Shown: positions 3-60,876 of the stretch, in pieces
How positions within the stretch are numbered: position 1 is the stretch's first letter
Layout: each line of letters begins with the position of its first letter
From: Shigella phage SSP1
DNA: 64,000 nucleotides
Strand: one strand, 5' to 3'
Sequence record: KY963424
Program-made: the position numbers and the translations under genes
Notes under the pieces: generated by a model
The model's input: the letters and a program-made list of their open reading frames with translations, nothing else
What the model was told of the DNA's origin: nothing
Database searches by the model: none

Positions 3-2051
3 TATGGTGTGCAGAAAATACCTGGAATACCTATTTTTGCGGATACGGAATTACATAATCCTAATATAGTTTACGTAGTATATGCTTTTGCTGAAGGAGA
101 GATAGACGGTTTTCTTGACTTTTCCTTTGGTGATAATCCTATGATTTGTATGGACTCTAATGATAGCTCTGCTAGAACCTGCTTCGGTGTTAAAAAAGTA
201 GCAGGAGACACCATGCAAAGAATAGCATCAGGAATATCTTCTAGTAGTCCTTCTGTGCATGGCCAGGAATATAAATATAACGATGGTAATGGTGATATAA
301 GGATTTGGACTTATCATGGAAAAGCCGATCAAACTGCTTCTGAAGTATTAGTAAATATAGCGAAGGAGCGTGGGTTCTATCTCCAAAGTATGAACGGTAA
401 TGGACCTGAGTACTGGGATGCTAGATATAAACTATTAGATACTGCATACGCGGTAGTACGCTTTACTATTAATGAAAATAGAACTGAGATCCCAGAAGTT
501 AGTGCTGAGATTCAGGGTAAGAAGATAAAAATCTACCATTCTGATGGTAGAGTAACTGCTAATAGTACTAGTTTAAATGGTATTTGGCAAACACTTGACT
601 ACTTAACTTCAGATAGGTATGGTGCAAACATTGCTATTGATCAGTTCCCTCTCCAACAATTGGTACAAGAAGCTGCTATCTTAGATATTATAGATGAATC
701 TTACCAGGTATCTTGGCAGCCATACTGGAGATATGTTGGGTGGACTGATCCATTAGCAGAAAATAGGCAAATAGTACAAATGAATACTATTCTAGATACA
801 TCTGAATCAGTATTTAAAAACGTGCAAGGTTTGCTAGAGTCCTACGGTGGGGCTATTAACAACTTATCTGGTCAATATAGGATTACTGTAGAAAAATATT
901 CTAATACTCCATTAGAGATTAATTTTCTGGATACTTATGGTGATTTAGAGCTATCAGATACTACTGGTAGAAATAAATTCAACTCAGTTCAAGCATCCAT
1001 CGTAGACCCAGCTCTTAGCTGGAAAACTAACTCTATTACCTTTTACAACTCTAAATATAAAGAGCAAGATAAAAATTTAGACAAAAAATTACAATTATCT
1101 TTTGCAAATATAACTAACTACTATACTGCTAGAAGTTTTGCAGACAGAGAGCTTAAAAAATCTAGGTATTCTAGAACCCTCTCATTTTCTTTACCATACC
1201 AATTCATTGGTATTGAGCCTAACGATGCTATTGCATTTACATACGACCGTTATGGATGGGATAAGAAATACTTTTTAGTAGATGAAGTCGAAAACTCTAG
1301 AGAAGGAAAGATAAATGTTACTCTACAAGAGTATGGGGAAGATGTATTTATCAACTCTGATCAAGTAGATAATAGTGGTAATGATATACCAGATATTAGT
1401 AACAATGTTCTTCCTCCTAGAGATTTTAAATATACCCCTACACCCGGTGGTTTAGTTGGTTCTATAGGAAAAAATGGTGAGCTATCTTGGCTTCCAAGTT
1501 TAACTAATAACGTAGTTTATTACTCTATCATGCATTCAGGTCATGCTGAACCCTATATCGTACAGCAACTAGAAACAAATCCCAATGAACGCATGATCCA
1601 AGAGATAATTGGAGAGCCTGCAGGTTTAGCAATATTTGAAATAAGGGCCGTGGATATAAACGGTAGAAGAAGTTCTCCAGTAACATTATCTATAGAACTT
1701 AACTCTGCTAAAAACCTAAGTGTAGTATCTAATTTTAGGGTAACTAATACGGCTTCTGGGGATGTAACTGAGTTTGTAGGCCCAGATGTAAAACTAGCTT
1801 GGGATAGGATACCAGAAGAAGATATAATAGAAAGTATATTCTATACTCTGGAGATCTATGATTCTCAGAATAGAATGCTAAGAAGTGTACGTATTGAAAA
1901 TCAGTATACTTATGACTATTTATTAATGTATAATAAGGCAGATTTTGCTCTTCATAACAGCGATGCTCTAGGAATCAATAGAAAACTATATTTTCGTATT
2001 AGAGCAGAAGGAGATGATGGAGAACAGTCTGTGGAGTGGGCATCCATTTAA
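3..2051 (+). CDS. Tail tip/baseplate protein, pb3-like, 5'-partial (reading frame is open to the window edge)
   Basis: Long ORF with no in-frame stop upstream of position 9; sits directly upstream of pb4-like and tail-fibre genes; product assigned by gene order and size only. Confidence 0.55.
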   Translation, partial: YGVQKIPGIPIFADTELHNPNIVYVVYAFAEGEIDGFLDFSFGDNPMICMDSNDSSARTCFGVKKVAGDTMQRIASGISSSSPSVHGQEYKYNDGNGDIRIWTYHGKADQTASEVLVNIAKERGFYLQSMNGNGPEYWDARYKLLDTAYAVVRFTINENRTEIPEVSAEIQGKKIKIYHSDGRVTANSTSLNGIWQTLDYLTSDRYGANIAIDQFPLQQLVQEAAILDIIDESYQVSWQPYWRYVGWTDPLAENRQIVQMNTILDTSESVFKNVQGLLESYGGAINNLSGQYRITVEKYSNTPLEINFLDTYGDLELSDTTGRNKFNSVQASIVDPALSWKTNSITFYNSKYKEQDKNLDKKLQLSFANITNYYTARSFADRELKKSRYSRTLSFSLPYQFIGIEPNDAIAFTYDRYGWDKKYFLVDEVENSREGKINVTLQEYGEDVFINSDQVDNSGNDIPDISNNVLPPRDFKYTPTPGGLVGSIGKNGELSWLPSLTNNVVYYSIMHSGHAEPYIVQQLETNPNERMIQEIIGEPAGLAIFEIRAVDINGRRSSPVTLSIELNSAKNLSVVSNFRVTNTASGDVTEFVGPDVKLAWDRIPEEDIIESIFYTLEIYDSQNRMLRSVRIENQYTYDYLLMYNKADFALHNSDALGINRKLYFRIRAEGDDGEQSVEWASI

Positions 2052-15970: not shown

Positions 15971-16077
15971 TCTTTTGAATAGCTTAATAATTAGGTCGGA
16001 ATTTCCTCTAGCTAGTAAGTATAGCTTTTCATAATCGAAGAATTTAATTTTTGTTTTCTCCTCGAATTTATGTATAT

Positions 16078-16107
16078 ATTATACTAGATTTCGAGAGAAT
16101 TTAGCAA
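16078..16107 (-). promoter_or_regulatory. T5-type early promoter (TTGCTA-18-TATAAT)
   Basis: Reverse complement reads AAAATTTTAGTTGCTAAATTCTCTCGAAATCTAGTATAAT with A-rich upstream region. Confidence 0.6.
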
Positions 16108-16178
16108 CTAAAATTTTTATTTTTCTGCTTCGGACTTTCTTATCAAACCGAAACTTTCTCTCTCAAATTTATGTATAT

Positions 16179-23049: not shown

Positions 23050-23095
23050 TGCAAAAAGGGGAAGGAGCATAGCCCCCTCCCCTTAGGTTTAATTT
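23050..23095 (-). terminator. Possible hairpin terminator
   Basis: GGGGAAGG...CCCCCTCCCC imperfect inverted repeat with T-run on minus strand. Confidence 0.35.
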
Positions 23096-23101: not shown

Positions 23102-23869
23102 TTATTCAGCAGCCGCAGCTTTTGCATCCAGTTTAGCACGCTTAGCGGCACCATCATAGTCCTTAGCAACCAGACCACGACGAGACAGCATAGATTTAAC
23201 ACCACGCTCAGACTTACCAGTTTTCTCAGCGATCTCAGCAACAGTCATGTTAACCAGATCCAGACCTTCTAACAGATCTTCACGAGTTTTAGCACTTGAA
23301 GTTTCCTGTACCGGCATAGCAGCGATACGACCTTCACGAAGCAGGCTCAGAGCTTTACCACGGATCTGCTTAATATTGCGGCCGAAGTGAGCAGCGATAG
23401 CTTCAATAGTAGCACCAGCAACAACCTGATTAACAAAATCAGTTTCTTCATCCGGAGTGAAGGAACGAACAGCAGCAGCTTTTTCAGTTGGCTTAACAGA
23501 AGCGGTCATTTCCAGGCTCAGAATCTTACCCTGTACCTGCTTAGCACCGAACTGACCACCAGCTACAGCAGCAGCGATTTCAGCATAGGTATACTGACCA
23601 GCATGAGCGTTCAGGAAATCAACCAGTTCAGCTTCCTGCTCAGGAGTCCACGGGGATTTCTGTACTTCGTTAGCTTTCTGTACTTCAAAACCTTCTTTAC
23701 GCAGTTTAGAGCCAACAGAGCGAGCAGTAACGTCTTTGCCAGTTTCAGCAGCCAGTTCAGTAGCGATAGCAGCTACTTGTTCTTGAGAGATTACAGCAAC
23801 ACCCAGAGCAGTGGCTTTTGCTTTCAGAGACTCGGTTACACCTTCTACGTTCCAGTTCAGTTTAGACAT
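23102..23869 (-). CDS. Ala-rich hypothetical protein with internal repeats and C-terminal HTH-like segment
   Basis: 255 aa; visibly higher GC and host-like codons (CTG, CGT, GCA) than neighbours; repeated ...EIAAAV/IEAIAAHF...; TVAEIAEKTGKSERGVKSMLSRRGL resembles an HTH. Confidence 0.6.
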   Translation of the reverse strand: MSKLNWNVEGVTESLKAKATALGVAVISQEQVAAIATELAAETGKDVTARSVGSKLRKEGFEVQKANEVQKSPWTPEQEAELVDFLNAHAGQYTYAEIAAAVAGGQFGAKQVQGKILSLEMTASVKPTEKAAAVRSFTPDEETDFVNQVVAGATIEAIAAHFGRNIKQIRGKALSLLREGRIAAMPVQETSSAKTREDLLEGLDLVNMTVAEIAEKTGKSERGVKSMLSRRGLVAKDYDGAAKRAKLDAKAAAAE

Positions 23870-24644
23870 TATTATTTTTCTCCAATAGTTCTTTAATCGA
23901 CAGGATTTCTATCCCATTCGTTTCGGCTTTCTTATAAGATGAGGAAGAACGTTTTGATTCATCCTCACAGATTAGGTATTTGACGTCTTTAGTAACGGAT
24001 TTCTTAACCGTATACCCTAGACTTTCTAAATAGTTTGTTGCATCCGTTCTATTTGCAAAATCTTGCAAAGATCCGGTAATACATACCGCGATTCCGTTTG
24101 GCTGGGCAACTAATTCATCTGTAATTATGATATTAGCTTTTGCACCTCTGATACCAGTTGAGAATTTCCACGGTAGTTCGATAACATCCTTGCCTTGTGG
24201 GGAATTTAGCCAGGCTCTATAGTTTTCTCCAGCCTTGCCGTCAGCCTTCACATCGTGGAAGCTAGTGCAATTTTGGGATAATTTCTTTGCTGCAACCTCT
24301 CCAATTAGAGGGATTCCTAAAGAACCGAGAACTGAATCAAAGTCAATGTCTCCGCGAACTTTAGTATTTAATTCGCTAATTAACTTAGCGGCAACCTTGC
24401 TACCCACGGCTCTAACCAAATCTTCTTCGGTTAGGTAAAACAGTTCTGAAATCTTCGTCAGCTCCAGCTTCTCAATAGTTTTTGGGCCAAAGCCCTTTAA
24501 CTTCATTTTTGTACAGAAGTTCTCAATTAACTTACTTGATTGCGCTGGACAGTTGGACTTATTCCGACAGAATAATTGTCCGTTGACAAGATCTAGCTTA
24601 GAACCACAAGAGGGACATTGTGTTGGAATTTCGATTTTCATCAA
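23862..24644 (-). CDS. NAD-dependent DNA ligase, C-terminal part (zinc finger/HhH/BRCT-like), subunit B
   Basis: CPSCGSKL...CRNKSNCPAQ Cys4 zinc finger, helix-hairpin-helix region, C-terminal BRCT-like fold. Confidence 0.65.
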   Translation of the reverse strand: MMKIEIPTQCPSCGSKLDLVNGQLFCRNKSNCPAQSSKLIENFCTKMKLKGFGPKTIEKLELTKISELFYLTEEDLVRAVGSKVAAKLISELNTKVRGDIDFDSVLGSLGIPLIGEVAAKKLSQNCTSFHDVKADGKAGENYRAWLNSPQGKDVIELPWKFSTGIRGAKANIIITDELVAQPNGIAVCITGSLQDFANRTDATNYLESLGYTVKKSVTKDVKYLICEDESKRSSSSYKKAETNGIEILSIKELLEKNNNV

Positions 24645-24671
24645 ATTTCTTCCTTATCAATTTATATAAAT

Positions 24672-24700
24672 ATTATAGCAAGTATTTAAGCATTTAGCAA
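24672..24700 (-). promoter_or_regulatory. T5-type early promoter in ligase inter-subunit gap (TTGCTA-17-TATAAT)
   Basis: Reverse complement AAAATTGTAGTTGCTAAATGCTTAAATACTTGCTATAAT. Confidence 0.6.
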
Positions 24701-24843
24701 CTACAATTTTAACTAACTTTGCTTACCCTCGCCATAACTTTCTATCCCTCAACTGAATGATAATAGTATATACCTAAGCGGCGAAAATGTCAATAACCAC
24801 TTTATAATTCCGATATGGTAGATGGGTAGCAAAGGGTTATGTA

Positions 24844-25815
24844 TTAATCGTATACTCGCTCTACTATGCACGGGATTACACCACCAGCACGAATTACTCG
24901 AATCTGGCAACCGATCTCTAGATCAAGAGAGTTAATATAATCAACGTTATTAAGAGTCGCTTTAACAATTGTAGCATCATCAATAATTACCGGTTCGAAA
25001 TAACCAACTGGAGTTACTTTACCAGAAGCCCCTACCTGCCACTCAACTTTAGTAAGAGTTGTAATCTCGCCTTCTTCATCCTCTTTAATAGCGAATGCTC
25101 CACGAGGGAATTTATTAGTCCAGCCTTCTCGGAAGAATTTGTTGTTGTCATTAATACGAACAACTTTACCGTCCGTCGGAATCCATTTAAAGAAGGAACG
25201 CACATTAACAACTGTTAAGAAATCTTCATTCTCTAGCCAGAGCATATCTTTTAAATATGATTCTGTAATACCTACAGATTCAGCAGAACACTGGATACCA
25301 TATGCAACGAAGATTAAACCACCTTCCCCGATACGTTGTACGAAATCATCGCTATCTTTGAGGTTAATAGCGCCAGAGGCAAAGTTACGTTTATTTTCTA
25401 CTTCTTTTGTAATTAGAACTTCACCAGTGATTTGAGTAGGTACTTTTTGGGAAATCTTTTGAGGGATATTTAGCAATCTTACGTTGCTTGTGACATCATT
25501 CCCTAGAATACCATTACCACGAGTTAGTGCTTGAACAAAATCTCCATTAATATATAACAGAGAAATCGCACAACCATCTAACTTATCAGTTTCTACCTGA
25601 CCTAATGGATTAAATGGAGGTTTATCTCCACGATTATAATAAACTTTCTGTAAAGAATACATACGATACAGATGTGGAATATCACCTTTAGGCCCGATCT
25701 CTTCTTCTAACGGAAATCTTTTAATCAGACGATCATATTCTTCGTCAGAGATTAAAGACATTCCCTGGTAATATGCTTCTTGACAACGTTTAATAAAGTC
25801 TTTTACATTAGTCAT
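24844..25815 (-). CDS. NAD-dependent DNA ligase, N-terminal adenylation/OB part, subunit A
   Basis: SDEEYDRL and KLDG (adenylation lysine motif) typical of LigA domain Ia/NTase. Confidence 0.75.
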   Translation of the reverse strand: MTNVKDFIKRCQEAYYQGMSLISDEEYDRLIKRFPLEEEIGPKGDIPHLYRMYSLQKVYYNRGDKPPFNPLGQVETDKLDGCAISLLYINGDFVQALTRGNGILGNDVTSNVRLLNIPQKISQKVPTQITGEVLITKEVENKRNFASGAINLKDSDDFVQRIGEGGLIFVAYGIQCSAESVGITESYLKDMLWLENEDFLTVVNVRSFFKWIPTDGKVVRINDNNKFFREGWTNKFPRGAFAIKEDEEGEITTLTKVEWQVGASGKVTPVGYFEPVIIDDATIVKATLNNVDYINSLDLEIGCQIRVIRAGGVIPCIVERVYD

Positions 25816-26014
25816 TCATTTCTACCTGTAGTTCTTTATTATACTGAGTAGTGAGATCGGCTAACTCTTGCGCTTCTTTCAACCACGCATCTTTGTACGC
25901 TTTATCGTTGATTCCACCAAAGTTATCTAGATAGTTATTTCTAGCAGTTGATACTAGGTTTAACTTTGCTTGAATTTTTGGAAGTGTTATGTTCATAATT
26001 GATCCTCTCATCAA
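25808..26014 (-). CDS. Hypothetical protein (68 aa)
   Basis: ORF directly downstream of an early promoter. Confidence 0.45.
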   Translation of the reverse strand: MMRGSIMNITLPKIQAKLNLVSTARNNYLDNFGGINDKAYKDAWLKEAQELADLTTQYNKELQVEMND

Positions 26015-26025
26015 TTTATATAAAT

Positions 26026-26054
26026 ATTATATAACAAAACTGAGTTGAAAGCAA
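26026..26054 (-). promoter_or_regulatory. T5-type early promoter (TTGCTT-17-TATAAT)
   Basis: Reverse complement ATTTGCTTTCAACTCAGTTTTGTTATATAAT. Confidence 0.6.
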
Positions 26055-26081
26055 ATACATTTATAAAGAAAAAGCCAAGAA

Positions 26082-26390
26082 CTAGGCATTCTTGGCTTTT
26101 AGTTCTTCAGCTCGTTTCTGTACTTCATGTAAAACCTCAGATTCGCTAAGAATCTGTGTAAACGCATAGAAAAGCTGTGATGTTGTTTCTAGGGTGTAAG
26201 GAAAAGAGAAGCCAGATTTCGTTGGAAACCATTCATCATTAATATCAAGAAGCCAGTAACGAATACCCATGTATAGATTCCCACGAAATTCAGATACTGT
26301 TAATCTTACTTGTTCTCCCTCCTTCTCCCAAAGTATGATGGACTGGTCATCAACGTGTCCTTCATAGTTTTGATTTACCTGTTCGCTCAT
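26082..26390 (-). CDS. Hypothetical protein (102 aa)
   Basis: ORF with upstream RBS. Confidence 0.5.
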   Translation of the reverse strand: MSEQVNQNYEGHVDDQSIILWEKEGEQVRLTVSEFRGNLYMGIRYWLLDINDEWFPTKSGFSFPYTLETTSQLFYAFTQILSESEVLHEVQKRAEELKAKNA

Positions 26391-31293: not shown

Positions 31294-31790
31294 AACAATA
31301 CTCCTGTATTGATTAATCGAAATCTTTTCTTTAGGACTATTCAGAAAGAATAGAACAACTATTACTACTATTTACGTAAACATCAATTATCATCAAACAA
31401 TATGAATAAGTTATCATATCTCAGTGCTGTGCTCTCTTCGCTCATATACAGAATAGAACCTAGGTCATTGGCCGCTAAGCCGATTCTATTTGTCCTCACT
31501 ATCCTATTGGTAGGTGACTACTGTACGTGCCGCCATTCGCTGCTCTTTTCGTTCGCACCCCCATATAAAGCTCTGCCTATATAACGAGCTAAATATGCAC
31601 GGTTTGGATTTACCTTTCCGAATTCAGGGTACACAGATCACTTAATTGAAGATTAACTAATGCAATATAAACACTAGTAATAGTTAAAACAACCCTTAAT
31701 GGGGCAGCCTAACTGTTCCGTATCGCGGATTGTAAACAAGAAAAATTAGCAAAATCAATTTTTACTAATGTCTCTCAATTCAATATAAAT

Positions 31791-31819
31791 ATTATATCAA
31801 GATTTTGGGCATCCTGCAA
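31791..31819 (-). promoter_or_regulatory. Early promoter (TTGCAG-17-TATAAT)
   Basis: Reverse complement TTTTACTTGCAGGATGCCCAAAATCTTGATATAAT; followed by about 480 nt leader before the 929-aa gene. Confidence 0.5.
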
Positions 31820-31913
31820 GTAAAATTTTCCGGATGGTGCTATCATTGGTCTTGAGTACGGGTAAAACCGAGCCAAAATGACTCGGTAATCAGAGTTCAG
31901 CCAATAAAAATCA

Positions 31914-37368: not shown

Positions 37369-37451
37369 TTATCTAGTATCACACATCTCCCGTTAAAAGC
37401 AAGCAAATTTTTTATTTAAATGCAATATCATAGGCTTATTTAAAATTGTAG

Positions 37452-37480
37452 TTGCTTTTTACTGTATATATTGGTATAAT
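37452..37480 (+). promoter_or_regulatory. T5-type early promoter (TTGCTT-17-TATAAT)
   Basis: AAAATTGTAGTTGCTTTTTACTGTATATATTGGTATAAT. Confidence 0.6.
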
Positions 37481-37553
37481 ATATTTGTAAGTTGATAAAC
37501 AAGATCTTTTTGTTGATCCTCTGTTAGCGAAGTACACTATAGGAGTGTTATTT

Positions 37554-50464: not shown

Positions 50465-50907
50465 TGGAAGAGAATATTTTAGATGTTTTGCGTAGAGCTT
50501 TGCAGGATTCTAAGTTTAATGGTTCTGATAAAGAAGTCGCTAAAAGCTATCAGACCATAATTGGGGATCTTCAGCGTATTGATAAAGATTTCATCACTTC
50601 TGAACAATTTGTGTCTTATCTCAAAGCTCAACTAAAAAGCATTAACCAGATGAAAGCTAAACTTCATGGTCAAGATCTTGATAGTTATAGCTTGCAGTCT
50701 GCTCAGTATGAATACATTCTAAATAAGTGGTTGCAGGAGTATCTGCCCCCTCAGTTATCTGATACTGAGATTCGTAAATACTTTGCAGAATTAGTTAAGC
50801 TAAACCCTGGAATTACAAAAGGTATGCTGATGAAAGCGATTAAGGAAGAATTTCCTGGGCGTTATGATGGTGGTACTGCTGCTCAGATTGCTGGCGAATT
50901 TAATTAA
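50464..50907 (+). CDS. GatB/YqeY-domain protein
   Basis: 147 aa; LSDTEIRKYFAEL...GMLMKAIK pattern typical of YqeY/GatB C-terminal domain. Confidence 0.55.
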   Translation: MEENILDVLRRALQDSKFNGSDKEVAKSYQTIIGDLQRIDKDFITSEQFVSYLKAQLKSINQMKAKLHGQDLDSYSLQSAQYEYILNKWLQEYLPPQLSDTEIRKYFAELVKLNPGITKGMLMKAIKEEFPGRYDGGTAAQIAGEFN

Positions 50908-50915
50908 AAATTTAT

Positions 50916-50944
50916 TTGCTAAATGCCTTTAAATTCTGTATAAT
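50916..50944 (+). promoter_or_regulatory. T5-type early promoter (TTGCTA-17-TATAAT) preceding ORF-less region
   Basis: AAAAATTTATTTGCTAAATGCCTTTAAATTCTGTATAAT + CATAAATTAGGGAAC. Confidence 0.65.
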
Positions 50945-51182
50945 ATATTCATAAATTAGGGAACAGCGAGCCGATTACGCTGAACTTGTCTTAATGTAAG
51001 ATGCGTCGAGCACTAAGATTCGTTGAATAGAGTCGGTGGGTTAGTTGTAAAACTAGTACACATGGGGCGGCAATCCCGGTTAGTGGCTAGAACGTGTAAA
51101 ATGAGGCGTCTGAAACCTCTCCCCTAAACTCTTCTCTAATTTATAAATAGTGGGGTGTGGAAATCACTTATGTAGTAACACT

Positions 51183-55289: not shown

Positions 55290-55378
55290 GGAAGAATAGC
55301 ATAACGGTATTGCAGCAGATTGCTAATCTGTCGGTTTGAAATATAGCCTTGTGGGTTCGATTCCCACTTCTTCCGCCA
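55290..55378 (+). tRNA. tRNA-Ser(GCT), type II
   Basis: Acceptor GGAAGAA/TTCTTCC, anticodon loop TTGCTAA, long variable arm, T-arm GTGGG-TTCGATT-CCCAC, encoded CCA. Confidence 0.8.
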
Positions 55379-55384
55379 GATTTT

Positions 55385-55462
55385 GGTTCTCAAGCTCATA
55401 TGGTATGAGCACCCGGCTCATAACCGGAAGGTACGTAGGTTCGAATCCTCGGGGAGCCACCA
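55385..55462 (+). tRNA. tRNA with CAT anticodon (Met or Ile2)
   Basis: Acceptor GGTTCTC/GGGAGCC (with G-U pairs), D-stem GCTC/GAGC, anticodon loop CTCATAA, T-loop TTCGAAT with imperfect stem, CCA encoded. Confidence 0.6.
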
Positions 55463-55480
55463 GTTAAATAGAGGTCACAA

Positions 55481-55669
55481 ATGGATCTATATATAGTTTA
55501 TGTTGTGTTTATTCAAGATAGAGAATACCCGGATGAATATAAAAAAGGATATAGGTTAGCCAGAGCTACCTCTGTAGCCCAAGCTATGGATAAAGTGGCA
55601 GATTATATGATTACGGTAGAAAACGTACACTATATCGACTACCTTGAAGCCTCAAAAGTAATTGACTAA
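55481..55669 (+). CDS. Hypothetical protein (62 aa)
   Basis: ORF immediately after tRNA; weak RBS. Confidence 0.4.
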   Translation: MDLYIVYVVFIQDREYPDEYKKGYRLARATSVAQAMDKVADYMITVENVHYIDYLEASKVID

Positions 55670-55678
55670 GGAGACTAT

Positions 55679-55864
55679 ATGTCTAAGTTTCAAGAACTCA
55701 AGCAAGAGCTAGAAGAATGTGCCTGCCCCGAATGTAGGGGAATTGGTGAAAGTTCTGATGCAGAAGCAGGAGATACTTTTTGCAATATCTGGGTTTGCTC
55801 AAATTGCAATGGTACAGGTATTAATCCTAACTGCGGTATTTCCCTAGATATTGAACGAGGATAA
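55679..55864 (+). CDS. Small Cys-rich (zinc-ribbon-like) protein (61 aa)
   Basis: CPECRG...CSNCNGTG two CxxC pairs; AGGAGACTATATG RBS. Confidence 0.45.
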   Translation: MSKFQELKQELEECACPECRGIGESSDAEAGDTFCNIWVCSNCNGTGINPNCGISLDIERG

Positions 55865-55965
55865 TACCTGTGAAACTAAAAGATTATTATATTGGTTGGT
55901 TTGTAGGATTAGTAGTAGGATTTTCACTAGGCTATAATATGTATCAACTAATAAACTGATTACAT

Positions 55966-56042
55966 GGGGGTGTAATCGAATTGGCATAGGTACTGGACTT
56001 AAAATTCAGGTTTTGTGGGTTCGAATCCCACCACCCCTACCA
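55966..56042 (+). tRNA. tRNA with anticodon TAA (Leu-type anticodon) but short variable arm
   Basis: Acceptor GGGGGTG/CACCCCT, anticodon arm CTGGA-CTTAAAA-TTCAG, T-arm GTGGG-TTCGAAT-CCCAC, CCA encoded; D-arm non-canonical. Confidence 0.55.
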
Positions 56043-56057
56043 AATTAAGGAAATAAG

Positions 56058-56225
56058 ATGTATAGACATCCACCTCCGCCAACACGTCGTTCTAGAGAAG
56101 TTATTCTCATGGAATTGACTAAAAACTTCAAGGCAACCCTTGAAGATAGAGATCTAGGCACGGATGAAGACATTGATTTTATTTGTAGACTATTAAAGAT
56201 GAAACTGGAGAAACAACATGGCTAA
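56058..56225 (+). CDS. Hypothetical small protein (55 aa)
   Basis: AAGGAAATAAGATG RBS right after tRNA; below ORF-track cut-off. Confidence 0.35.
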   Translation: MYRHPPPPTRRSREVILMELTKNFKATLEDRDLGTDEDIDFICRLLKMKLEKQHG

Positions 56226-56424
56226 TCCTGAAATTACCGCACAACGCTTCATGCTTAAAGGCATGATTGCTGAGGCAGGTATAACTCAAGAGGTTGCAGA
56301 TTTTCATAAGCAATTTCTTGATATTATAACTCTAGCTAAAGAGACTGGAGAAAAAGAGCACGGAGCAGCAATTATGGCTATATCTCTTATTAGTCTAGAC
56401 TTGGCTGAAGAATCTGGAGTTTAG
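56218..56424 (+). CDS. Hypothetical protein (68 aa)
   Basis: ORF overlapping previous stop. Confidence 0.4.
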   Translation: MANPEITAQRFMLKGMIAEAGITQEVADFHKQFLDIITLAKETGEKEHGAAIMAISLISLDLAEESGV

Positions 56425-56454
56425 CTCCTCCAAACAGAATTTTTAAAAATGTAC

Positions 56455-56484
56455 TTGCCTTTTGCTTTAAATTTCTGATATAAT
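56455..56484 (+). promoter_or_regulatory. T5-type early promoter (TTGCCT-18-TATAAT)
   Basis: AAAAATGTACTTGCCTTTTGCTTTAAATTTCTGATATAAT. Confidence 0.55.
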
Positions 56485-56514
56485 AGTTATATAAATTGAT
56501 GAAGGAGTTAACGA

Positions 56515-56790
56515 ATGCAAAATCGTGTTATAGCTGCTGGTATTGAAAGTGCAATCTGTAAATCCTGGGAAGGCTGGGAAGGTGAGATTGAATGGCTTTA
56601 TTTCTACGATGTAGAACTTCTGCCGGAAATTAAAGCTAAATGTGTTGAAGCTGGCATGGCTCCAGATGCAAAAGCTGATATTGATATTTCAATGTCTGAA
56701 CTTAAAGGTCGTGTAATCACTGTTAGTGATGAGGGTGAAGAAGTTTTTGAACTTCCGTTCTCCTTAACTGTCACTCCTAAGTTCGACTAG
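56515..56790 (+). CDS. Hypothetical acidic protein (91 aa)
   Basis: GAAGGAG RBS. Confidence 0.45.
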   Translation: MQNRVIAAGIESAICKSWEGWEGEIEWLYFYDVELLPEIKAKCVEAGMAPDAKADIDISMSELKGRVITVSDEGEEVFELPFSLTVTPKFD

Positions 56791-56826
56791 CTAATACAGC
56801 ATTGGGCAAGTTCTTTAAAATTTGAC

Positions 56827-56855
56827 TTGCTCAGTGCCTTAAAACTTGATATAAT
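56827..56855 (+). promoter_or_regulatory. T5-type early promoter (TTGCTC-17-TATAAT) upstream of tRNA-Tyr
   Basis: AAAATTTGACTTGCTCAGTGCCTTAAAACTTGATATAAT. Confidence 0.6.
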
Positions 56856-56979
56856 AGTTATCTAATTTGGAAACATATCTGAATGAGAAGTAATTAAGCG
56901 AGTTGCTTTGAGGGGTAAAGTCAGGAAATCCTGAAATATTCCACCTTGAGTTTAACCGACTTACTTTTCATTCAAATAT

Positions 56980-57060
56980 GAGGGATTGGCTCAGTGGCGA
57001 CGGCGCCTGGCTGTAGACCGGGTATATCACGCGGAGGTTCGAGTCCTCCATCCCTCACCA
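56980..57060 (+). tRNA. tRNA-Tyr(GTA)
   Basis: Acceptor GAGGGAT/ATCCCTC perfect, anticodon arm CCTGG-CTGTAGA-CCGGG, extended variable region, T-arm GGAGG-TTCGAGT-CCTCC, CCA encoded. Confidence 0.7.
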
Positions 57061-57078
57061 AATTACTAAGGAAGTAAT

Positions 57079-57624
57079 ATGCACAATAAGTTAATAAATG
57101 AGCTTCAAAAAAGACAAATAATAACAAAAACTAAGGAGTTTGATATAACTCCAGATTTAATAGTTGAATGTTCAAAAGTTTACTTAGAATTAAGTAACAC
57201 AAAAGCTAAGAAAGTCTCTTTAGGGGATCTTAGATATAACGTTAAACTATTGTGCTTATCATTAATTAAATTTAAACAGGAAAATAAACTTGCTATAAAA
57301 GAAGGCTTCATATATTTTATAGCAAATAAGGCCTGGCCCAATTATTTTAAGATTGGTATGTCAGCTAACCCAAAGAAACGCTTAGCGAACTATCAAACAT
57401 ATAGCCCCTTTAGGGATTATACAATGCTACACTGGTCTTTCTGGTTTGATAGAAAGGAAGGTGAAAAGTTTGTCCATAGTCTCTATCATGATAGAGATCA
57501 TGAATGGGTTAAGTTGCCTCAAAGAAAACTAAATAAAATATTTGAACAAATTAATAAACTTTCTGGTTTGGAACATTTAGTACAGAAAGTTAATAGAGAA
57601 ATAGTTAATGCACCTATCGTCTAA
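57079..57624 (+). CDS. T5orf172/GIY-YIG-like domain protein (mobile-element-type)
   Basis: GFIYFIANKAWPNYFKIGMSANPKKRLANYQTYSP resembles the T5orf172 (GIY-YIG-related) signature; AT-rich codon usage; stop overlaps tRNA-Glu 5' end. Confidence 0.55.
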   Translation: MHNKLINELQKRQIITKTKEFDITPDLIVECSKVYLELSNTKAKKVSLGDLRYNVKLLCLSLIKFKQENKLAIKEGFIYFIANKAWPNYFKIGMSANPKKRLANYQTYSPFRDYTMLHWSFWFDRKEGEKFVHSLYHDRDHEWVKLPQRKLNKIFEQINKLSGLEHLVQKVNREIVNAPIV

Positions 57625-57684
57625 TGGTTAGGACATCAGGATTTCAATCTGAGAATCGGAGTTCAATTCTCCGTGGGTGTACCA
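57610..57684 (+). tRNA. tRNA-Glu(TTC)
   Basis: Acceptor GCACCTA/TGGGTGT (two G-U), D-stem GTC/GAC, anticodon arm TCAGG-ATTTCAA-TCTGA, T-arm CGGAG-TTCAATT-CTCCG, CCA encoded. Confidence 0.75.
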
Positions 57685-57692
57685 GTTTCTGC

Positions 57693-57769
57693 ATTCCTAG
57701 AGTGTTACTGGACAGCATGTCGGTCTCCAAAACCGTACGGTCTAGGTTCGAGTCCTAGTAGGTTTGCCA
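57693..57769 (+). tRNA. tRNA-Trp(CCA)-like (acceptor stem with two U-U mismatches)
   Basis: Anticodon arm CGGT-CTCCAAA-ACCG, D-stem GTGT/GCAT, T-arm CTAGG-TTCGAGT-CCTAG, CCA encoded; acceptor ATTCCTA/TAGGTTT pairs only 5 of 7. Confidence 0.5.
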
Positions 57770-57775
57770 AAATTT

Positions 57776-57850
57776 GCACCTTTAGCTGAGATGGATTAGC
57801 GCTTGCCTGAAGAGCTTGAGAGGTTCGTTCGATACGAACAGGGTGCACCA
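57776..57850 (+). tRNA. tRNA-Phe(GAA)-like
   Basis: Acceptor GCACCTT/AGGGTGC, D-stem GCTG/TAGC, anticodon loop CTGAAGA (stem has two U-U), T-arm GTTCG-TTCGATA-CGAAC, CCA encoded. Confidence 0.6.
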
Positions 57851-57852
57851 AT

Positions 57853-58140
57853 TTGAATGAGCTGCTGATGCATCCTGAAAACTTCTTTATTTACTGCGCG
57901 GATAAGTCGCTGAAACGTAGAATTAACAAAGTCTATCATTATCGTGCTAGTCAACAGCCTTATGTATATGCTTTTGACGGTGATCACATTCCACTAGAAC
58001 AATTATCTTGTGATTACATGATATTGAAGAACTTTGACGAGACGAAGATCTCAAGCGTTCATAATCGACAGAATCCATTAACGTGGAAATATAAGAAGAA
58101 AAAGAAAGGCATCAAATTCTTAAAAAATGTAGTTGCTTAG
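57853..58140 (+). CDS. Hypothetical protein (95 aa)
   Basis: ORF following tRNA block; 3' end overlaps a promoter; weak evidence. Confidence 0.35.
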   Translation: MNELLMHPENFFIYCADKSLKRRINKVYHYRASQQPYVYAFDGDHIPLEQLSCDYMILKNFDETKISSVHNRQNPLTWKYKKKKKGIKFLKNVVA

Positions 58141-58161
58141 TTTCCAAAAGTTCTGTATAAT
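58133..58161 (+). promoter_or_regulatory. T5-type early promoter (TTGCTT-17-TATAAT)
   Basis: AAAAATGTAGTTGCTTAGTTTCCAAAAGTTCTGTATAAT + ACATAAATTGAACTGGAG. Confidence 0.6.
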
Positions 58162-58190
58162 AATTACATAAATTGAACTGGAGAAGCAAC

Positions 58191-58415
58191 ATGACAGAAC
58201 AAGAATTGAATGAACGTAAGCTGGTAATGCTTCGCTTACTAAATATTTTCTCTGGTATGGACGGTGGAATTGACTTTGTTCATCTACGTTCTTTCGTAGA
58301 AGAAGCCGAAGGCGAATCTATCACTAAAATCCTTAAACACATGGGATTACTTTTAGATGCTGCTAATGTGGCTACTGAATATAAACTAGAAGATCTACCG
58401 AAGCGTGTTAAATGA
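58191..58415 (+). CDS. Hypothetical protein (74 aa)
   Basis: Start MTEQEL with GGAGAAGCAACATG RBS. Confidence 0.45.
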   Translation: MTEQELNERKLVMLRLLNIFSGMDGGIDFVHLRSFVEEAEGESITKILKHMGLLLDAANVATEYKLEDLPKRVK

Positions 58416-58603
58416 GAAAGTTAGTTAAATTTAAGTGTTGTGGTTCTGAACATATTTTCACACATCTTCGTGAATTTAAAATGTGTGATTGTGGTAAATC
58501 AGGCTATGACTCAGGAGATGGGTTCTACACCCGTACTCTAGGGAACTTCAATGATCTAGAATTTGAAGATCTCGAAAAACAAGATAAATCGACCGTTGGC
58601 TGA
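58412..58603 (+). CDS. Small Cys-containing protein (63 aa)
   Basis: Translationally coupled; CCGSEH...CDCGKSG; stop overlaps tRNA-Cys 5' end. Confidence 0.4.
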   Translation: MRKLVKFKCCGSEHIFTHLREFKMCDCGKSGYDSGDGFYTRTLGNFNDLEFEDLEKQDKSTVG

Positions 58604-58665
58604 ATGGCTTAGGCGAAGGATTGCAAATCCTTTTTATGTGAGTTCAAATCTCATGCGGTCGTCCA
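58590..58665 (+). tRNA. tRNA-Cys(GCA)
   Basis: Acceptor CGACCGT/GCGGTCG, anticodon arm AAGGA-TTGCAAA-TCCTT, T-arm GTGAG-TTCAAAT-CTCAT, CCA encoded. Confidence 0.75.
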
Positions 58666-58667
58666 AT

Positions 58668-58808
58668 TTGCTGAAAGAATTGTTAAATCAATTCAGGCAC
58701 GCGTAGGAACACTGTCTCCGCAATTGAAAGATGAGGCACGGTTTGGAGAGGTATGCCGCTACACGCTACGGTGCTAACTCCGTCTAGGTGAAAATCCTAG
58801 TCAGCAAT
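58668..58808 (+). ncRNA. 141-nt tRNA-like structured RNA (perfect 7-bp terminal stem, T-arm-positioned hairpin, long insertion)
   Basis: 5' TTGCTGA pairs perfectly with 3' TCAGCAA; hairpin CTAGG-TGAAAAT-CCTAG immediately precedes the 3' strand; no ORF. Confidence 0.35.
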
Positions 58809-58817
58809 ATAAATTTA

Positions 58818-58900
58818 GGGTCGTTAGCCAAGCGGTTTGGCGGTGGACTGTTAATCCATGTCGAAAGACAACGTAGGTTCGAATCCTACACGGCCCGCCA
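58818..58900 (+). tRNA. tRNA with Asn-type anticodon arm (GTT) but extended 13-nt variable arm
   Basis: Acceptor GGGTCGT/ACGGCCC, D-stem GCC/GGC, anticodon arm GTGGA-CTGTTAA-TCCAT (close to the E. coli tRNA-Asn arm as recalled), variable GTCGAAAGACAAC, T-arm GTAGG-TTCGAAT-CCTAC, CCA encoded. Confidence 0.6.
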
Positions 58901-59002
58901 AATTCTGTGTAGAGTTAAGTAAACCGGTAGCCAACCAGCTATCATTGCTGATATCGAATTCAGCCACAGATACCATTTTCATTAATAACTGAGGAAACAA
59001 GC

Positions 59003-59188
59003 ATGTCCAAGAATGTAATTGCACAGTTAGAAGTTCATCGTGATAGCACTATCAACAATATTGAAGTTGAGAAGAAATACATAGAAGAACTTAAACACGA
59101 TATACTAGTAAGTCTCAATCGTCTTAATGTACGAAAAGAGTTTCTTAAAGAACTTAATGCAGCTATTGAAAAACTCAAAGCTGAGTAA
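59003..59188 (+). CDS. Hypothetical coiled-coil protein (61 aa)
   Basis: GAGGAAACAAGCATG RBS. Confidence 0.45.
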   Translation: MSKNVIAQLEVHRDSTINNIEVEKKYIEELKHDILVSLNRLNVRKEFLKELNAAIEKLKAE

Positions 59189-59195
59189 ATGAATT

Positions 59196-59777
59196 ATGCA
59201 CGGAATATTTTTACCTATTCCTATGTTTGATGAATATCTGGTAAGTCTAGATGGGTTAGTGTTCAGTATTAAATCAAATAAAATACTAACCCCAATAACT
59301 AGTAATTATGGATATGTATCTGTACGCCTACATCATAACGGTAGGCAAAGAAATACTGGTATACATAGAATCATAGCATGTGCCTTTAAAAGGTTACCTA
59401 GTTTAGACTCTGTACTAGAGGTTGATCATATTGATACAGATATCACCTATTGGGGATTAAATAATCTACAAGTCCTTACTAAAGAACAGCATTTAGAAAA
59501 AACCCTGAAAGATAAGGGCTATAATAAACTAATACATAATAAACAGTGTAGTATATGTGGTGAACCTATATCACTGAAAGCAGATAAGTGTCAAAAATGC
59601 TCATCACATAAACTGAAAGATCCATCTATTACTAAAGAAATAATAGAATCTACTGTAAAAGAGTTAGGATGGTCTGGTGCTGGAAGAAGATTATCTTATT
59701 CTGATAACGGGTTAAGAAAACGTTATAAAGCATTAGGTGGTGATCCAAAAGAATTAAAAAAGTTAAAGGTACTATAG
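59196..59777 (+). CDS. HNH homing endonuclease (NUMOD4-like N-terminus + HNH)
   Basis: IHRIIACAF...EVDHIDTDITYWGLNNLQVLTKEQHLEKT HNH core; paralog of 62914..63474 with shared C-terminal SGAGRRLSYSDNGLRKRYKALGG; stop overlaps tRNA-Asp. Confidence 0.7.
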   Translation: MHGIFLPIPMFDEYLVSLDGLVFSIKSNKILTPITSNYGYVSVRLHHNGRQRNTGIHRIIACAFKRLPSLDSVLEVDHIDTDITYWGLNNLQVLTKEQHLEKTLKDKGYNKLIHNKQCSICGEPISLKADKCQKCSSHKLKDPSITKEIIESTVKELGWSGAGRRLSYSDNGLRKRYKALGGDPKELKKLKVL

Positions 59778-59842
59778 TCTAACGGTTAGGATACTCCCCT
59801 GTCACGGGAGAGGTAGGGTTTCGATTACCCTTAGTACCGCCA
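59768..59842 (+). tRNA. tRNA-Asp(GTC)
   Basis: Acceptor GGTACTA/TAGTACC perfect, anticodon arm CTCCC-CTGTCAC-GGGAG, T-arm AGGGT-TTCGATT-ACCCT, CCA encoded. Confidence 0.8.
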
Positions 59843-59868
59843 AACTAAACTAGCACGAGAAATATGCT

Positions 59869-60216
59869 ATGATTAATGCTAAAGAAGAATTGTTACTTGC
59901 CCTAAAGAATATTAATTCTGAAGTTAAGTGTATTAAGATAGAATTCGGTTATTATGGGGACAAAGAAGTTTGGGTATTACCCATAGGTTATACAGAAAAA
60001 GATATTGAAGATTTTCTAAATAATCTAGACTTTAAATATGATTCTGGTTTCGGTGGACAATTGCTTTATGGTAACGTATGGTTTACTGATGGAACTTGGT
60101 TAGAACGTGGTGAATATGATGGTTCTGAATGGTGGGAATATAAGACTACACCGGCAATCCCAGAAGAATGCCGAACAATTAATGGTGAAGTAGATAATAC
60201 TTTACGGTTAAACTAA
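59869..60216 (+). CDS. Hypothetical protein (115 aa)
   Basis: ORF with Trp/Gly-rich C-terminus. Confidence 0.5.
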   Translation: MINAKEELLLALKNINSEVKCIKIEFGYYGDKEVWVLPIGYTEKDIEDFLNNLDFKYDSGFGGQLLYGNVWFTDGTWLERGEYDGSEWWEYKTTPAIPEECRTINGEVDNTLRLN

Positions 60217-60220
60217 TAAA

Positions 60221-60329
60221 ATTTCAGTGCAGAACACGGAGCTAGCAATTCGGAAGTGCTGACTCATGATAAGCTGCCTATGTACTTGCTAAGCGGTCGT
60301 GTCCAAGACTCGGACTCTTGCACTGAAAA
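60221..60329 (+). ncRNA. Structured RNA candidate closed by about 11-bp terminal stem
   Basis: TTTCAGTGCAG (60222-60232) is complementary to CTTGCACTGAAA (60317-60328); internal hairpin GTCC-AAGACTC-GGAC; no ORF. Confidence 0.35.
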
Positions 60330-60338
60330 CAATCAAAC

Positions 60339-60459
60339 ATTCTAGCGTGGTTGATGGAGAAACCAGCTTGGCGAGGGCAGAAGCTCGTTCGATTCGAGTG
60401 AAAGAATGGTTCTCGTAAGTCCGCACAAGTGATAACAGGTTCGAGTCCTGTCTAGAATG
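60339..60459 (+). ncRNA. 121-nt tRNA-like RNA (perfect acceptor stem + canonical T-arm, oversized body)
   Basis: 5' ATTCTAG pairs with 3' CTAGAAT; T-arm ACAGG-TTCGAGT-CCTGT; second internal T-arm-like hairpin GCTCG-TTCGATT-CGAGT; no CCA encoded. Confidence 0.4.
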
Positions 60460-60469
60460 ACACTATAAA

Positions 60470-60592
60470 GTTTACTTATTATGTAGGTTCCGATAGATCG
60501 GCGGGTCTATTCTGGCATTTAAGAGAGGTCTCGCAAACTTCTTTGTCAGCCGTGGGGTTCATAGCCTCCAGGTGGCCTACACAATAAGTAAA
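60470..60592 (+). ncRNA. Structured RNA candidate closed by 14-bp terminal stem
   Basis: ACTTATTATGTAGG (60474-60487) pairs with CCTACACAATAAGT (60576-60589) with one mismatch; internal palindromes; no ORF. Confidence 0.35.
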
Positions 60593-60608
60593 TTTATTAA
60601 AAATTCAT

Positions 60609-60638
60609 TTGCTATTCTGCTTTATTATCTGTATAATA
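60609..60638 (+). promoter_or_regulatory. T5-type early promoter (TTGCTA-18-TATAAT)
   Basis: AAAAATTCATTTGCTATTCTGCTTTATTATCTGTATAAT. Confidence 0.6.
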
Positions 60639-60867: not shown

Positions 60868-60876
60868 AAGAATTAA

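What the first reader, a model, noticed from the sequence alone, without database searches (positions are those of the whole stretch)
23862..25815. NAD-dependent DNA ligase encoded as two separate ORFs with a promoter in the gap
The adenylation/OB half (KLDG motif, 24844..25815) and the Zn-finger/HhH/BRCT half (23862..24644) are separate ORFs. They are split by about 200 bp that contains a complete T5-type promoter (24672..24700). Either this is a functional two-subunit ligase or the remnant of an excised or inserted element. The gap resembles the promoter-bearing intergenic regions elsewhere, not an intron or intein.
Basis: partly seen in the sequence, partly recalled or inferred. Interest (0 to 1): 0.4.

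Follow-up and report, generated by a model that had tools for sequence, protein, structure and literature searches.

The report
Known split T5 ligase, ligA/ligB
This is the long-known two-gene (ligA/ligB) NAD-dependent DNA ligase of T5-like phages, with the classic T5 early promoters between the two genes. It is real and functional, but it is already annotated, and a relative's two-chain enzyme has been solved on nicked DNA.

Summary
On the minus strand, 24844..25815 encodes the Ia/adenylation/OB half (323 aa). 23862..24641 encodes the Zn-finger/HhH/BRCT half (259 aa from the ATG). They are separated by 202 nt with stops in all frames.

The promoter at 24700..24672 is real, and a second one lies at 24793..24765. 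The gap is base-for-base identical to phage T5, where RefSeq annotates ligA (T5.116), promoters P-K 28b and P-K 28a, and ligB (T5.117).

The split was reported with the T5 genome (Wang 2005) and is routinely annotated as ligase subunits A and B.

It is shared by every Demerecviridae lineage sampled (hosts Escherichia, Salmonella, Klebsiella, Pectobacterium, Providencia, Proteus, Vibrio). No fused form appeared among relatives at or above about 46% identity. Both halves keep all catalytic and metal-binding residues and are under purifying selection (dN/dS 0.04-0.25).

PDB 9HU3/9I5I (2026) show the orthologous Providencia phage PR1 heterodimeric ligase bound to nicked DNA.

In relatives, the space between ligA and the fixed promoter module carries variable cargo, including a homing-endonuclease-like gene. 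This fits an old mobile-element origin for the split.

Verdict: already known, functional two-subunit ligase. Low interest.

The parts
26026..26054 (-). T5-consensus promoter (TTGCTT-17-TATAAT) that starts the transcription unit holding the small ORF and ligA. A terminator-like hairpin precedes it at 26100..26070.
   Evidence: Read directly from the sequence. The -10/leader part is 96% identical over 25 nt to the same part of the ligB promoter. A promoter is annotated at the equivalent place in AKFV33.
25808..25996 (-). Small accessory ORF (62 aa from the ATG; the ORF listing extends it to a TTG at 26014). Function unknown. Its end overlaps the ligA start.
   Evidence: It matches phrog_8267 at 2.7e-39 from residue 7 of the 68-aa ORF. 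It is absent from T5/AKFV33-type relatives, whose alignments begin at query position 174-181.
24844..25815 (-). ligA, the catalytic subunit (323 aa). It holds a short Ia (NMN-binding) domain, the nucleotidyltransferase/adenylation domain with K78 in the KLDG motif, and the OB fold.
   Evidence: Pfam PF01653 plus PF03120. It matches PDB 9hu3_A at 1.7e-103 over its full length. It aligns to E. coli LigA with K78=K115, E132=E173, D215=D285 and K244=K314, ending at residue 390. The AF2 model has pLDDT 87 and TM 0.81-0.84 to 9hu3_A/9i5i_A. dN/dS is 0.04-0.12.
24642..24843 (-). 202-nt intergenic gap. It has stops in all three frames and 31% GC, and it is identical to the T5 ligA-ligB spacer. No terminator-like site follows ligA.
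   Evidence: No Rfam match.
24765..24793 (-). Upstream promoter of the tandem pair, equal to T5 'P-K 28b' (TTGACA-17-TATACT).
   Evidence: The T5 RefSeq annotation is and the identity to T5. A -35 hexamer lies at -150 to -155 from the ligB ATG in all 12 genomes examined.
24672..24700 (-). Downstream promoter, equal to T5 'P-K 28a' (TTGCTA-17-TATAAT with an extended-10 TG). This is the promoter named in the finding.
   Evidence: It is annotated as a T5-consensus promoter in AKFV33. It is conserved at about -59 from the ligB ATG in PR1, PM135 and Vibrio phage 70E34-3. The surrounding stretch 24645..24722 resembles seven other places in the window.
24649..24655 (-). Ribosome-binding site AAGGAAG, 7 nt upstream of the ligB ATG.
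   Evidence: Read directly from the sequence. A ribosome-binding site is annotated at the equivalent position in phage Sealy.
23862..24641 (-). ligB, the DNA-binding subunit (259 aa). It holds a Cys4 zinc finger (C9, C12, C25, C31), HhH motifs and a BRCT domain.
   Evidence: Pfam BRCT and HhH. It matches PDB 9hu3_B at 9.3e-81 over its full length. It aligns to E. coli LigA residues 402-529 and 585-666. The Cys and Gly residues are invariant. dN/dS is 0.07-0.25.
23102..23869 (-). D5 (DNA-binding protein) gene. Its ATG overlaps the ligB stop (ATGTCTAA). It follows ligB in every relative examined, and it is followed by a strong terminator-like hairpin at 23084..23056.

Best explanation
The window comes from a T5-like phage (Demerecviridae, Markadamsvirinae). 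The feature is its NAD+-dependent DNA ligase, encoded as two genes that make a heterodimeric enzyme.

LigA (323 aa) carries everything needed for chemistry: the NMN-binding Ia domain, the adenylation domain with its active-site lysine, and the OB fold. LigB (259 aa) carries the modules that in one-piece bacterial LigA complete the clamp around nicked duplex DNA: the zinc finger, the HhH domain and the BRCT domain. The break lies exactly in the flexible linker between OB fold and zinc finger, so each polypeptide is a set of whole domains. The two are inferred to reassemble non-covalently around a nick.

Transcription: ligA is the last gene of one early unit (promoter at 26054..26026). No terminator follows it. 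Two strong T5 early promoters, P-K 28b and P-K 28a, lie in the 202-nt spacer and add transcription of ligB and of D5. D5 is probably translationally coupled to ligB, since its start overlaps the ligB stop. A terminator follows at 23084..23056.

The split dates back at least to the common ancestor of the lineages sampled. It most likely arose when a mobile cassette, such as a free-standing homing endonuclease gene and/or the promoter module, landed in the linker-coding region. The spot between the ligA stop and the promoter module is still a landing site for such cargo in relatives.

Shown here: the gene structure, domain content, conservation, selection, and identity with the annotated T5 features. 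Shown by others (PDB entry titles and chains): an orthologous pair forms a heterodimer on nicked DNA. Inferred: heterodimer formation and activity for this particular phage, read-through from ligA into ligB, and the mobile-element origin.
For: Identity and annotation:
- The region is 99% identical to Salmonella phage HMD-P4, and it matches 469 T5-like records, many of which annotate ligase subunits A and B.
- T5 RefSeq annotates ligA, P-K 28b, P-K 28a and ligB, and the window's spacer is identical to T5's.
- The literature calls it the split NAD+-dependent DNA ligase of T5 (PMC1684257, citing Wang 2005). It lists ligA AAU05253 and ligB AAU05254 (PMC3632103). See also PMC4319617.

Domains and residues:
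- Pfam domains.
- Residue-level mapping to E. coli LigA 2OWO, with the break between residues 390 and 402.
- The invariant residues are Y15, Y16, Y27, D28, K78, D80, G81, R99, E132, D215, G216 and K244 in LigA. In LigB they are C9, C12, C25 and C31.

Function:
- dN/dS is 0.04-0.12 for ligA and 0.07-0.25 for ligB in unsaturated pairs. All ORFs are intact in 12 genomes, and the two halves diverge in parallel.
- PDB 9HU3 and 9I5I are titled 'PR1 phage heterodimeric DNA ligase in complex with 21-mer nicked DNA'. Over the aligned residues their chains are 100% identical to PR1_116 and PR1_117, and they match the window's halves at E 1.7e-103 and 9.3e-81.

Age of the split:
- In tblastn with a fused query, every sampled hit at or above 47% identity is in 2 or more pieces. 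Every one-piece hit is below 30% identity.
- The best 120 database homologues of each half are all half-length.

Promoter module: it sits at fixed distances from the ligB ATG across genera.

Mobile cargo at the junction in relatives:
- A T5orf172/GIY-YIG-like endonuclease in Kpn24-P3, next to synonymous recoding of the last ligA codons.
- Small ORFs in smaug and PM135.
- Three ORFs, including a DprA-like gene, in Vibrio phage IW18.
Against: - No experiment on this phage's proteins is available here. No paper describing the PR1 structures was found in the searchable library, so activity data and the nature of the subunit interface were not seen.
- The window's halves are only 55-56% identical to PR1's.
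- The residue equivalent to E. coli K290 is arginine (R220) throughout the family. This is a conservative difference from the bacterial motif IV.
- The mobile-element origin is an inference. The window's own gap holds no endonuclease gene or recognisable remnant, and neither half has added 'tails' at the junction.
- The general promoter scan is not enriched over shuffled sequence. Promoter function rests on T5 annotation and conservation, not on data from this window.
Confidence: 0.93

Rival explanations
1. The locus is a pseudogene or a sequencing/assembly artefact. A one-piece ligase gene was broken by a frameshift or nonsense error, and one or both pieces are dead.
For: Broken copies do occur. 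The record of phage VAH1 has ligA itself annotated in two pieces.
Against: - The two ORFs are separated by 202 nt of non-coding, promoter-bearing DNA with stops in all frames, not by a single frameshift.
- The same architecture is present in hundreds of independently sequenced genomes across seven host genera.
- Both halves show dN/dS far below 1 and keep every catalytic and metal-binding residue.
- An orthologous pair has been crystallised as a heterodimer on DNA.
Confidence: 0.01
2. The two halves are joined after transcription or translation. Candidate routes are a group I intron in the gap, translational bypass, or a split intein that ligates the polypeptides.
For: Phage replication genes often carry introns and inteins, and T4 gene 60 shows ribosomal bypass (background knowledge).
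Against: - There is no Rfam match in 23800..25900, even at E up to 1.
- The gap's length and content vary from 170 to 1374 nt among relatives and can hold whole genes.
- The gap holds two promoters and a ribosome-binding site with an ATG for ligB.
- The two proteins together align to E. coli LigA with no extra residues at the junction. There are only 3 residues after the OB fold and 2 before the aligned Zn-finger region, which leaves no room for intein halves.
- The PDB entries hold two separate chains.
Confidence: 0.01
3. The two genes are functionally uncoupled. LigA alone is the working (minimal) ligase. LigB has been taken over for another job, for example as a DNA-binding partner of D5 or of the replisome, with which it is co-transcribed.
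For: - ligB has its own tandem promoters, and its stop overlaps the D5 start. It is always followed by D5 (and the annotation calls).
- A C-terminally truncated archaeal LigN, holding only Ia, adenylation and OB domains, still self-adenylates (PMC1684257).
Against: - LigB retains the complete Zn-finger, HhH and BRCT signature of LigA-family ligases and evolves at the same rate as LigA.
- The PR1 structures show the two chains together on nicked DNA.
- For one-piece LigA enzymes, nick sealing (as opposed to self-adenylation) needs the Zn/HhH modules. This is established knowledge from E. coli LigA domain studies and was not tested here.
- An additional role for LigB is not excluded.
Confidence: 0.05

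Closest known systems
Phage T5 ligA/ligB (T5.116/T5.117; AAU05253/AAU05254) with promoters P-K 28b and P-K 28a
   Same: The gene order, lengths (323 and 259 aa) and split point are the same, and the 202-nt spacer with both promoters is identical. Protein identity to T5-group relatives is 96-99%.
   Different: The window has an extra 62-aa ORF just upstream of ligA that T5/AKFV33-type genomes lack. Otherwise nothing differs.
Providencia phage vB_PreS_PR1 heterodimeric DNA ligase (PDB 9HU3, 9I5I; released 2026)
   Same: It is the orthologous two-gene enzyme with the same split point, the same ligA-promoters-ligB-D5 order, and both promoters at the same distances. Full-length matches give E 1.7e-103 and 9.3e-81. 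The AF2 model of the window's LigA superposes at TM 0.81-0.84.
   Different: Amino-acid identity is 55-56%. PR1 LigA is 10 residues longer and PR1 LigB is 11 residues shorter. The PR1 record annotates a terminator after ligA. No terminator-like site is seen after ligA in the window.
One-piece bacterial LigA (E. coli LigA, PDB 2OWO)
   Same: The domain series Ia-NTase-OB-Zn-HhH-BRCT is the same. The motif residues match: K115/K78, R136/R99, E173/E132, D285/D215, K314/K244, and Cys408/411/426/432 = C9/12/25/31.
   Different: E. coli LigA is a single 671-aa chain, against two chains of 323 and 259 aa here. The N-terminal part is about 37 residues shorter before the active-site lysine, and the adenylation domain is more compact. 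Arginine replaces K290. Identity is only about 25-28%.
'Genes in pieces' made by free-standing homing endonucleases: Aeromonas phage Aeh1 nrdA-a/mobE/nrdA-b (Crona et al. 2011, PMC3045599)
   Same: An essential DNA-metabolism enzyme is split into two separately translated polypeptides that reassemble without splicing. An endonuclease gene sits at the junction in at least one relative (Kpn24-P3), with recoded flanking codons.
   Different: In this window the endonuclease is absent. The split is family-wide and old rather than lineage-specific. It falls in an interdomain linker rather than inside a domain. No junction 'tails' of the kind essential in Aeh1 NrdA are present.

Membership tests
NAD+-dependent DNA ligase (LigA family) | Nucleotidyltransferase domain with the motif I lysine (KxDG) and motifs III, IV and V | tested here: met
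   PF01653 at 4e-23. K78-L-D80-G81 aligns to E. coli K115, E132 to E173, D215-G216 to D285-G286, and K244 to K314. All are invariant in 31 homologues. R220 replaces K290.
NAD+-dependent DNA ligase (LigA family) | N-terminal Ia domain with the NMN-contacting Tyr/Asp residues that specify NAD+ rather than ATP | tested here: met
   Residues 4-42 align to the Ia region of T. filiformis, D. radiodurans and E. coli LigA (the YY...ISDxEYDRL segment). Y15, Y27 and D28 are invariant and Y16 is nearly so. That these residues contact NMN is prior knowledge of E. coli LigA. NAD+ use itself was not tested.
NAD+-dependent DNA ligase (LigA family) | OB-fold domain following the NTase domain | tested here: met
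   PF03120 at 3.6e-22 over residues 252-321. Residues 214-320 align to E. coli LigA 284-390. The AF2 model shows a beta-barrel segment.
NAD+-dependent DNA ligase (LigA family) | Cys4 zinc finger, HhH domain and BRCT domain | tested here: met
   These lie on the second polypeptide. C9, C12, C25 and C31 are invariant. HhH and BRCT are found by Pfam. The polypeptide aligns to E. coli LigA 402-529 and 585-666.
NAD+-dependent DNA ligase (LigA family) | All domains on a single polypeptide | tested here: not met
   There are two ORFs separated by 202 nt with stops in all frames. This is the one respect in which it departs from canonical LigA.
T5-type heterodimeric (LigA/LigB) phage ligase of Demerecviridae | Break between OB fold and zinc finger, and gene order ligA - spacer with promoters - ligB - D5 | tested here: met
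   plus the annotations of nine relatives.
T5-type heterodimeric (LigA/LigB) phage ligase of Demerecviridae | The two polypeptides form a complex that binds and seals nicked DNA | not testable with these tools
   A complex on nicked DNA is shown only for the PR1 ortholog, by the PDB 9HU3/9I5I entry titles and chains. For this phage it is inferred from 55-56% identity and conserved residues.
Gene split by a resident free-standing homing endonuclease ('genes in pieces') | An endonuclease gene sits between the two halves | tested here: not met
   The window's gap has no ORF of 30 aa or more on the coding strand other than a spurious overlap. It consists of promoters. An endonuclease is present in the relative Kpn24-P3.
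Intron- or intein-interrupted gene | A self-splicing RNA fold in the gap, or intein blocks at the junction | tested here: not met
   No Rfam match at E up to 1. The junction residues are fully accounted for by the E. coli LigA linker.

The most novel reading that the evidence does not exclude
The split may be maintained by selection rather than being a neutral scar. The tandem promoter module sits at a fixed distance upstream of ligB in every lineage sampled, and the ligB stop overlaps the D5 start. This could give the DNA-binding subunit a dosage or timing different from the catalytic subunit. That might regulate when the programmed nicks of T5-like genomes are sealed or left open, or it might allow LigB a second role with D5 or the replisome.
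Probability: 0.12. Interest if true: 0.45.

Novelty: already known. Interest (0 to 1): 0.1.

Why it matters
As a discovery it matters little. The split ligase has been in the T5 genome annotation since 2005, and the promoters in the gap carry classical T5 names in the RefSeq record. A heterodimeric ortholog bound to nicked DNA entered the PDB in 2026.

Its general interest is as a clean natural example of a multidomain enzyme cut at an interdomain linker and still working. It also shows a junction that stays a landing pad for mobile genes. For the scan, it shows that the first-stage reader recognised a real, functional gene architecture from sequence alone.

Tried and rejected
- Rfam search of the region for introns or other RNAs found nothing.
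- Frameshift or read-through fusion is rejected. The gap length is 202 nt (not a multiple of 3) and there are several stops in each frame.
- An intein is rejected on protein lengths and junction alignment.
It was redone with database homologues.
- Literature searches for the paper behind 9HU3/9I5I, and for P-K 28a/b under various spellings, found nothing usable. A search for T5 transcription-start mapping was also uninformative.
- A short ORF after the upstream promoter (MARVSKVS in the window) was considered as a leader peptide. It was dropped because its start codon and frame are not conserved in PM135 or Sealy.
- The small gap ORFs of smaug (64 aa) and PM135 (55 aa) have no Pfam or PHROG match. 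Whether they are endonuclease remnants could not be decided.
- dS is saturated for the distant pairs, so dN/dS is only quoted for pairs with dS below about 1.
Full report
**What is in the sequence**

On the minus strand, the ORF listing gives a 323-aa ORF at 24844..25815 and a 260-aa ORF at 23862..24644. The second ORF's TTG is directly followed by an ATG at 24641, which has an AAGGAAG ribosome-binding site 7 nt upstream. The ATG is the start used in the T5 record, so ligB is 23862..24641 (259 aa) and the spacer is 202 nt.

Pfam finds the NAD-ligase adenylation and OB domains in the first ORF, and BRCT and HhH in the second. The spacer has several stop codons in every frame and 31% GC. It has no Rfam match.

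The promoter named in the finding is found exactly at 24700..24672 (TTGCTA-17-TATAAT with an upstream TG). A second and better match, TTGACA-17-TATACT, lies at 24793..24765.

**Where it comes from and what is already annotated**

The region is 99% identical to Salmonella phage HMD-P4, and 469 phage records match it. [quoted passage not shown]

In the T5 RefSeq record, the two genes are ligA (T5.116) and ligB (T5.117). The spacer carries two named promoters, P-K 28b and P-K 28a. The window's spacer is identical to T5's base for base. The AKFV33 record also annotates the downstream promoter.

The literature says the same:
- PMC3632103 lists ligA AAU05253 and ligB AAU05254.
- PMC4319617 describes A and B subunits in phage Stitch.

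From my own knowledge, the P-K 28 promoters belong to the set of strong T5 early promoters characterised in the 1980s. I could not retrieve that paper here.

**Anatomy of the split**

Against E. coli LigA (PDB 2OWO), the first half aligns with K78 = K115 (KxDG), E132 = E173, D215-G216 = D285-G286 and K244 = K314, and it ends at residue 390. The second half begins at residue 402, with C9, C12, C25 and C31 on the four zinc-finger cysteines. It continues through HhH and BRCT.

The N-terminal 40 residues align to the Ia domain, including the YY and YD pairs. All these residues are invariant or nearly so in alignments of 9 and 31 family members.

The cut therefore lies in the OB-to-zinc-finger linker. 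No domain is truncated, and no extra residues are present at the junction. This excludes intein halves and argues against 'tails' of the kind seen in the split NrdA of phage Aeh1.

**Is it functional?**

Across 12 genomes from six named genera or subfamilies of Demerecviridae, both ORFs are intact. The two halves diverge in parallel: 72/72, 56/56, 59/56, 67/63, 51/54 and 52/46% identity for A/B. For pairs that are not saturated, dN/dS is 0.04-0.12 for ligA and 0.07-0.25 for ligB.

The PDB holds two entries whose chains A and B match the two halves over their full length, at E 1.7e-103 and 9.3e-81. Over the aligned residues these chains are 100% identical to PR1_116 and PR1_117 of Providencia phage vB_PreS_PR1.

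Foldseek with an AlphaFold model of the window's LigA (pLDDT 87) returns these entries first, at TM 0.81-0.84. Their titles are:
- 'PR1 phage heterodimeric DNA ligase in complex with 21-mer nicked DNA containing phage nick sequence' (9HU3, released 2026-01-14).
- The same complex with a random sequence (9I5I, released 2026-02-18).

An orthologous pair has therefore been shown to form a heterodimer on nicked DNA. I found no paper for these entries in the library.

**How old and how general is the split?**

A tblastn search used the two halves joined into one query against 50,697 phage records. In an evenly spaced sample of 60 of the 1254 hits, all 43 hits at or above 47% identity were in two or more pieces. 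These were T5-like phages of Escherichia, Salmonella, Klebsiella, Pectobacterium and Vibrio. All 17 one-piece hits were below 30% identity; most were jumbo phages, alongside a few short or unannotated records.

In the 5.8-billion-protein collection, the best 120 homologues of LigA are 307-337 aa, apart from one 240-aa partial sequence. Those of LigB are 247-263 aa, partial sequences aside.

The split thus predates the common ancestor of the lineages sampled, and no close relative has a fused gene.

**The spacer in relatives**

The two promoters keep their positions relative to the ligB start, with -35 hexamers near -152 and -59. This holds even in Providencia, Proteus and Vibrio phages, whose coding sequences are saturated at synonymous sites.

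What varies is the stretch between the ligA stop and this promoter module:
- Nothing in the window, T5, Sealy and My1.
- A 64-aa ORF in smaug.
- A 55-aa ORF in PM135.
- Three ORFs in Vibrio phage IW18, one of them DprA-like.
- A 232-aa endonuclease in Klebsiella phage Kpn24-P3, with a T5orf172/GIY-YIG-like domain and zinc-ribbon modules (phrog_681).

Kpn24-P3 and its endonuclease-free relative Sealy are 95-99% identical on both sides. Next to the insertion, however, the last nine ligA codons are recoded synonymously. This is the pattern expected when a free-standing homing endonuclease brings in a cleavage-resistant flank.

This makes a mobile-element origin of the split plausible, by analogy with mobE in Aeh1 nrdA (PMC3045599). 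It remains an inference, because the window itself holds no endonuclease or remnant.

**Transcription context in the window**

- A terminator-like hairpin (26100..26070) is followed by a T5-consensus promoter (26054..26026).
- Next comes a 62-aa ORF of unknown function (phrog_8267), then ligA, whose start overlaps that ORF's end.
- No terminator-like site follows ligA.
- The tandem promoters then precede ligB.
- The ligB stop overlaps the D5 start (ATGTCTAA).
- A strong terminator-like hairpin follows D5 at 23084..23056.

I infer that ligB and D5 receive read-through plus two extra promoters. They are therefore likely to be expressed more strongly than, or on a different schedule from, ligA. 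This has not been measured here.

**Verdict**

It is already known at every level: the genes, the promoters, and now a structure. Novelty is 'already known' and interest is low.

The one reading with some novelty left is that the split is kept by selection because it uncouples expression of the DNA-binding subunit (with D5) from the catalytic subunit. The fixed promoter module is compatible with this but does not demonstrate it.

Noticed in passing
window 24765..24793 and 24672..24700; loci L001-L012 upstream of ligB: The tandem promoter pair keeps nearly the same distances from the ligB ATG (-35 hexamers near -152 and -59) in T5-like phages of Escherichia, Salmonella, Providencia, Proteus and Vibrio. 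This holds even though synonymous sites in the flanking genes are saturated. Variable cargo always lies upstream of this module.
   Followed up: partly
L002 (Klebsiella phage vB_Kpn24-P3) 2427..3155, compared with L011 (Sealy) 1936..1980: A ~729-nt insertion carries a T5orf172/GIY-YIG-like endonuclease with zinc-ribbon modules (phrog_681). The last nine codons of ligA next to it are recoded synonymously relative to the endonuclease-free relative. This looks like the co-converted, cleavage-immune flank of a homing endonuclease.
   Followed up: partly
L004 (Vibrio phage IW18) 3450..4010; L009 (Pectobacterium phage My1) 993..1505: A DprA-like gene (phrog_768; the two copies are 29% identical) lies between ligA and ligB in the Vibrio phage but directly upstream of ligA in My1.
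   Followed up: partly
window 25808..25996 (-): A small ORF (62 aa from the ATG; phrog_8267, function unknown) overlaps the ligA start. It is absent from T5/AKFV33-type relatives, whose alignments begin just downstream of it, so it is an indel-variable accessory gene.
   Followed up: partly
L013 (Escherichia phage vB_EcoS_VAH1, MK373792) 1001..1826: In this record ligA itself is annotated as two overlapping pieces, and tblastn gives three pieces for the locus. This is a frameshift that is either a sequencing error or a real disruption.
   Followed up: no
window 24645..24722 versus 61313..61377, 37436..37504, 56443..56506, 50894..50957, 31775..31829, 16065..16117, 26007..26031: The P-K 28a promoter with its leader resembles seven other places in the window at 77-96% identity over 25-70 nt. 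These are presumably the family of T5 early promoters with a shared downstream region.
   Followed up: no
window 55290..63538 (+): A cluster of 18 tRNA genes lies on the plus strand, as is usual for T5-like genomes.
   Followed up: no
window LigA residue R220 (codon at about 25158..25156): The position equivalent to E. coli LigA motif IV K290 is arginine in every family member aligned.
   Followed up: no
L012 (Vibrio phage 70E34-3) 2286..2417: The annotated 43-aa ORF overlaps the stretch where both conserved promoters upstream of ligB lie, and it overlaps the ligB start. It is probably a spurious gene call.
   Followed up: no
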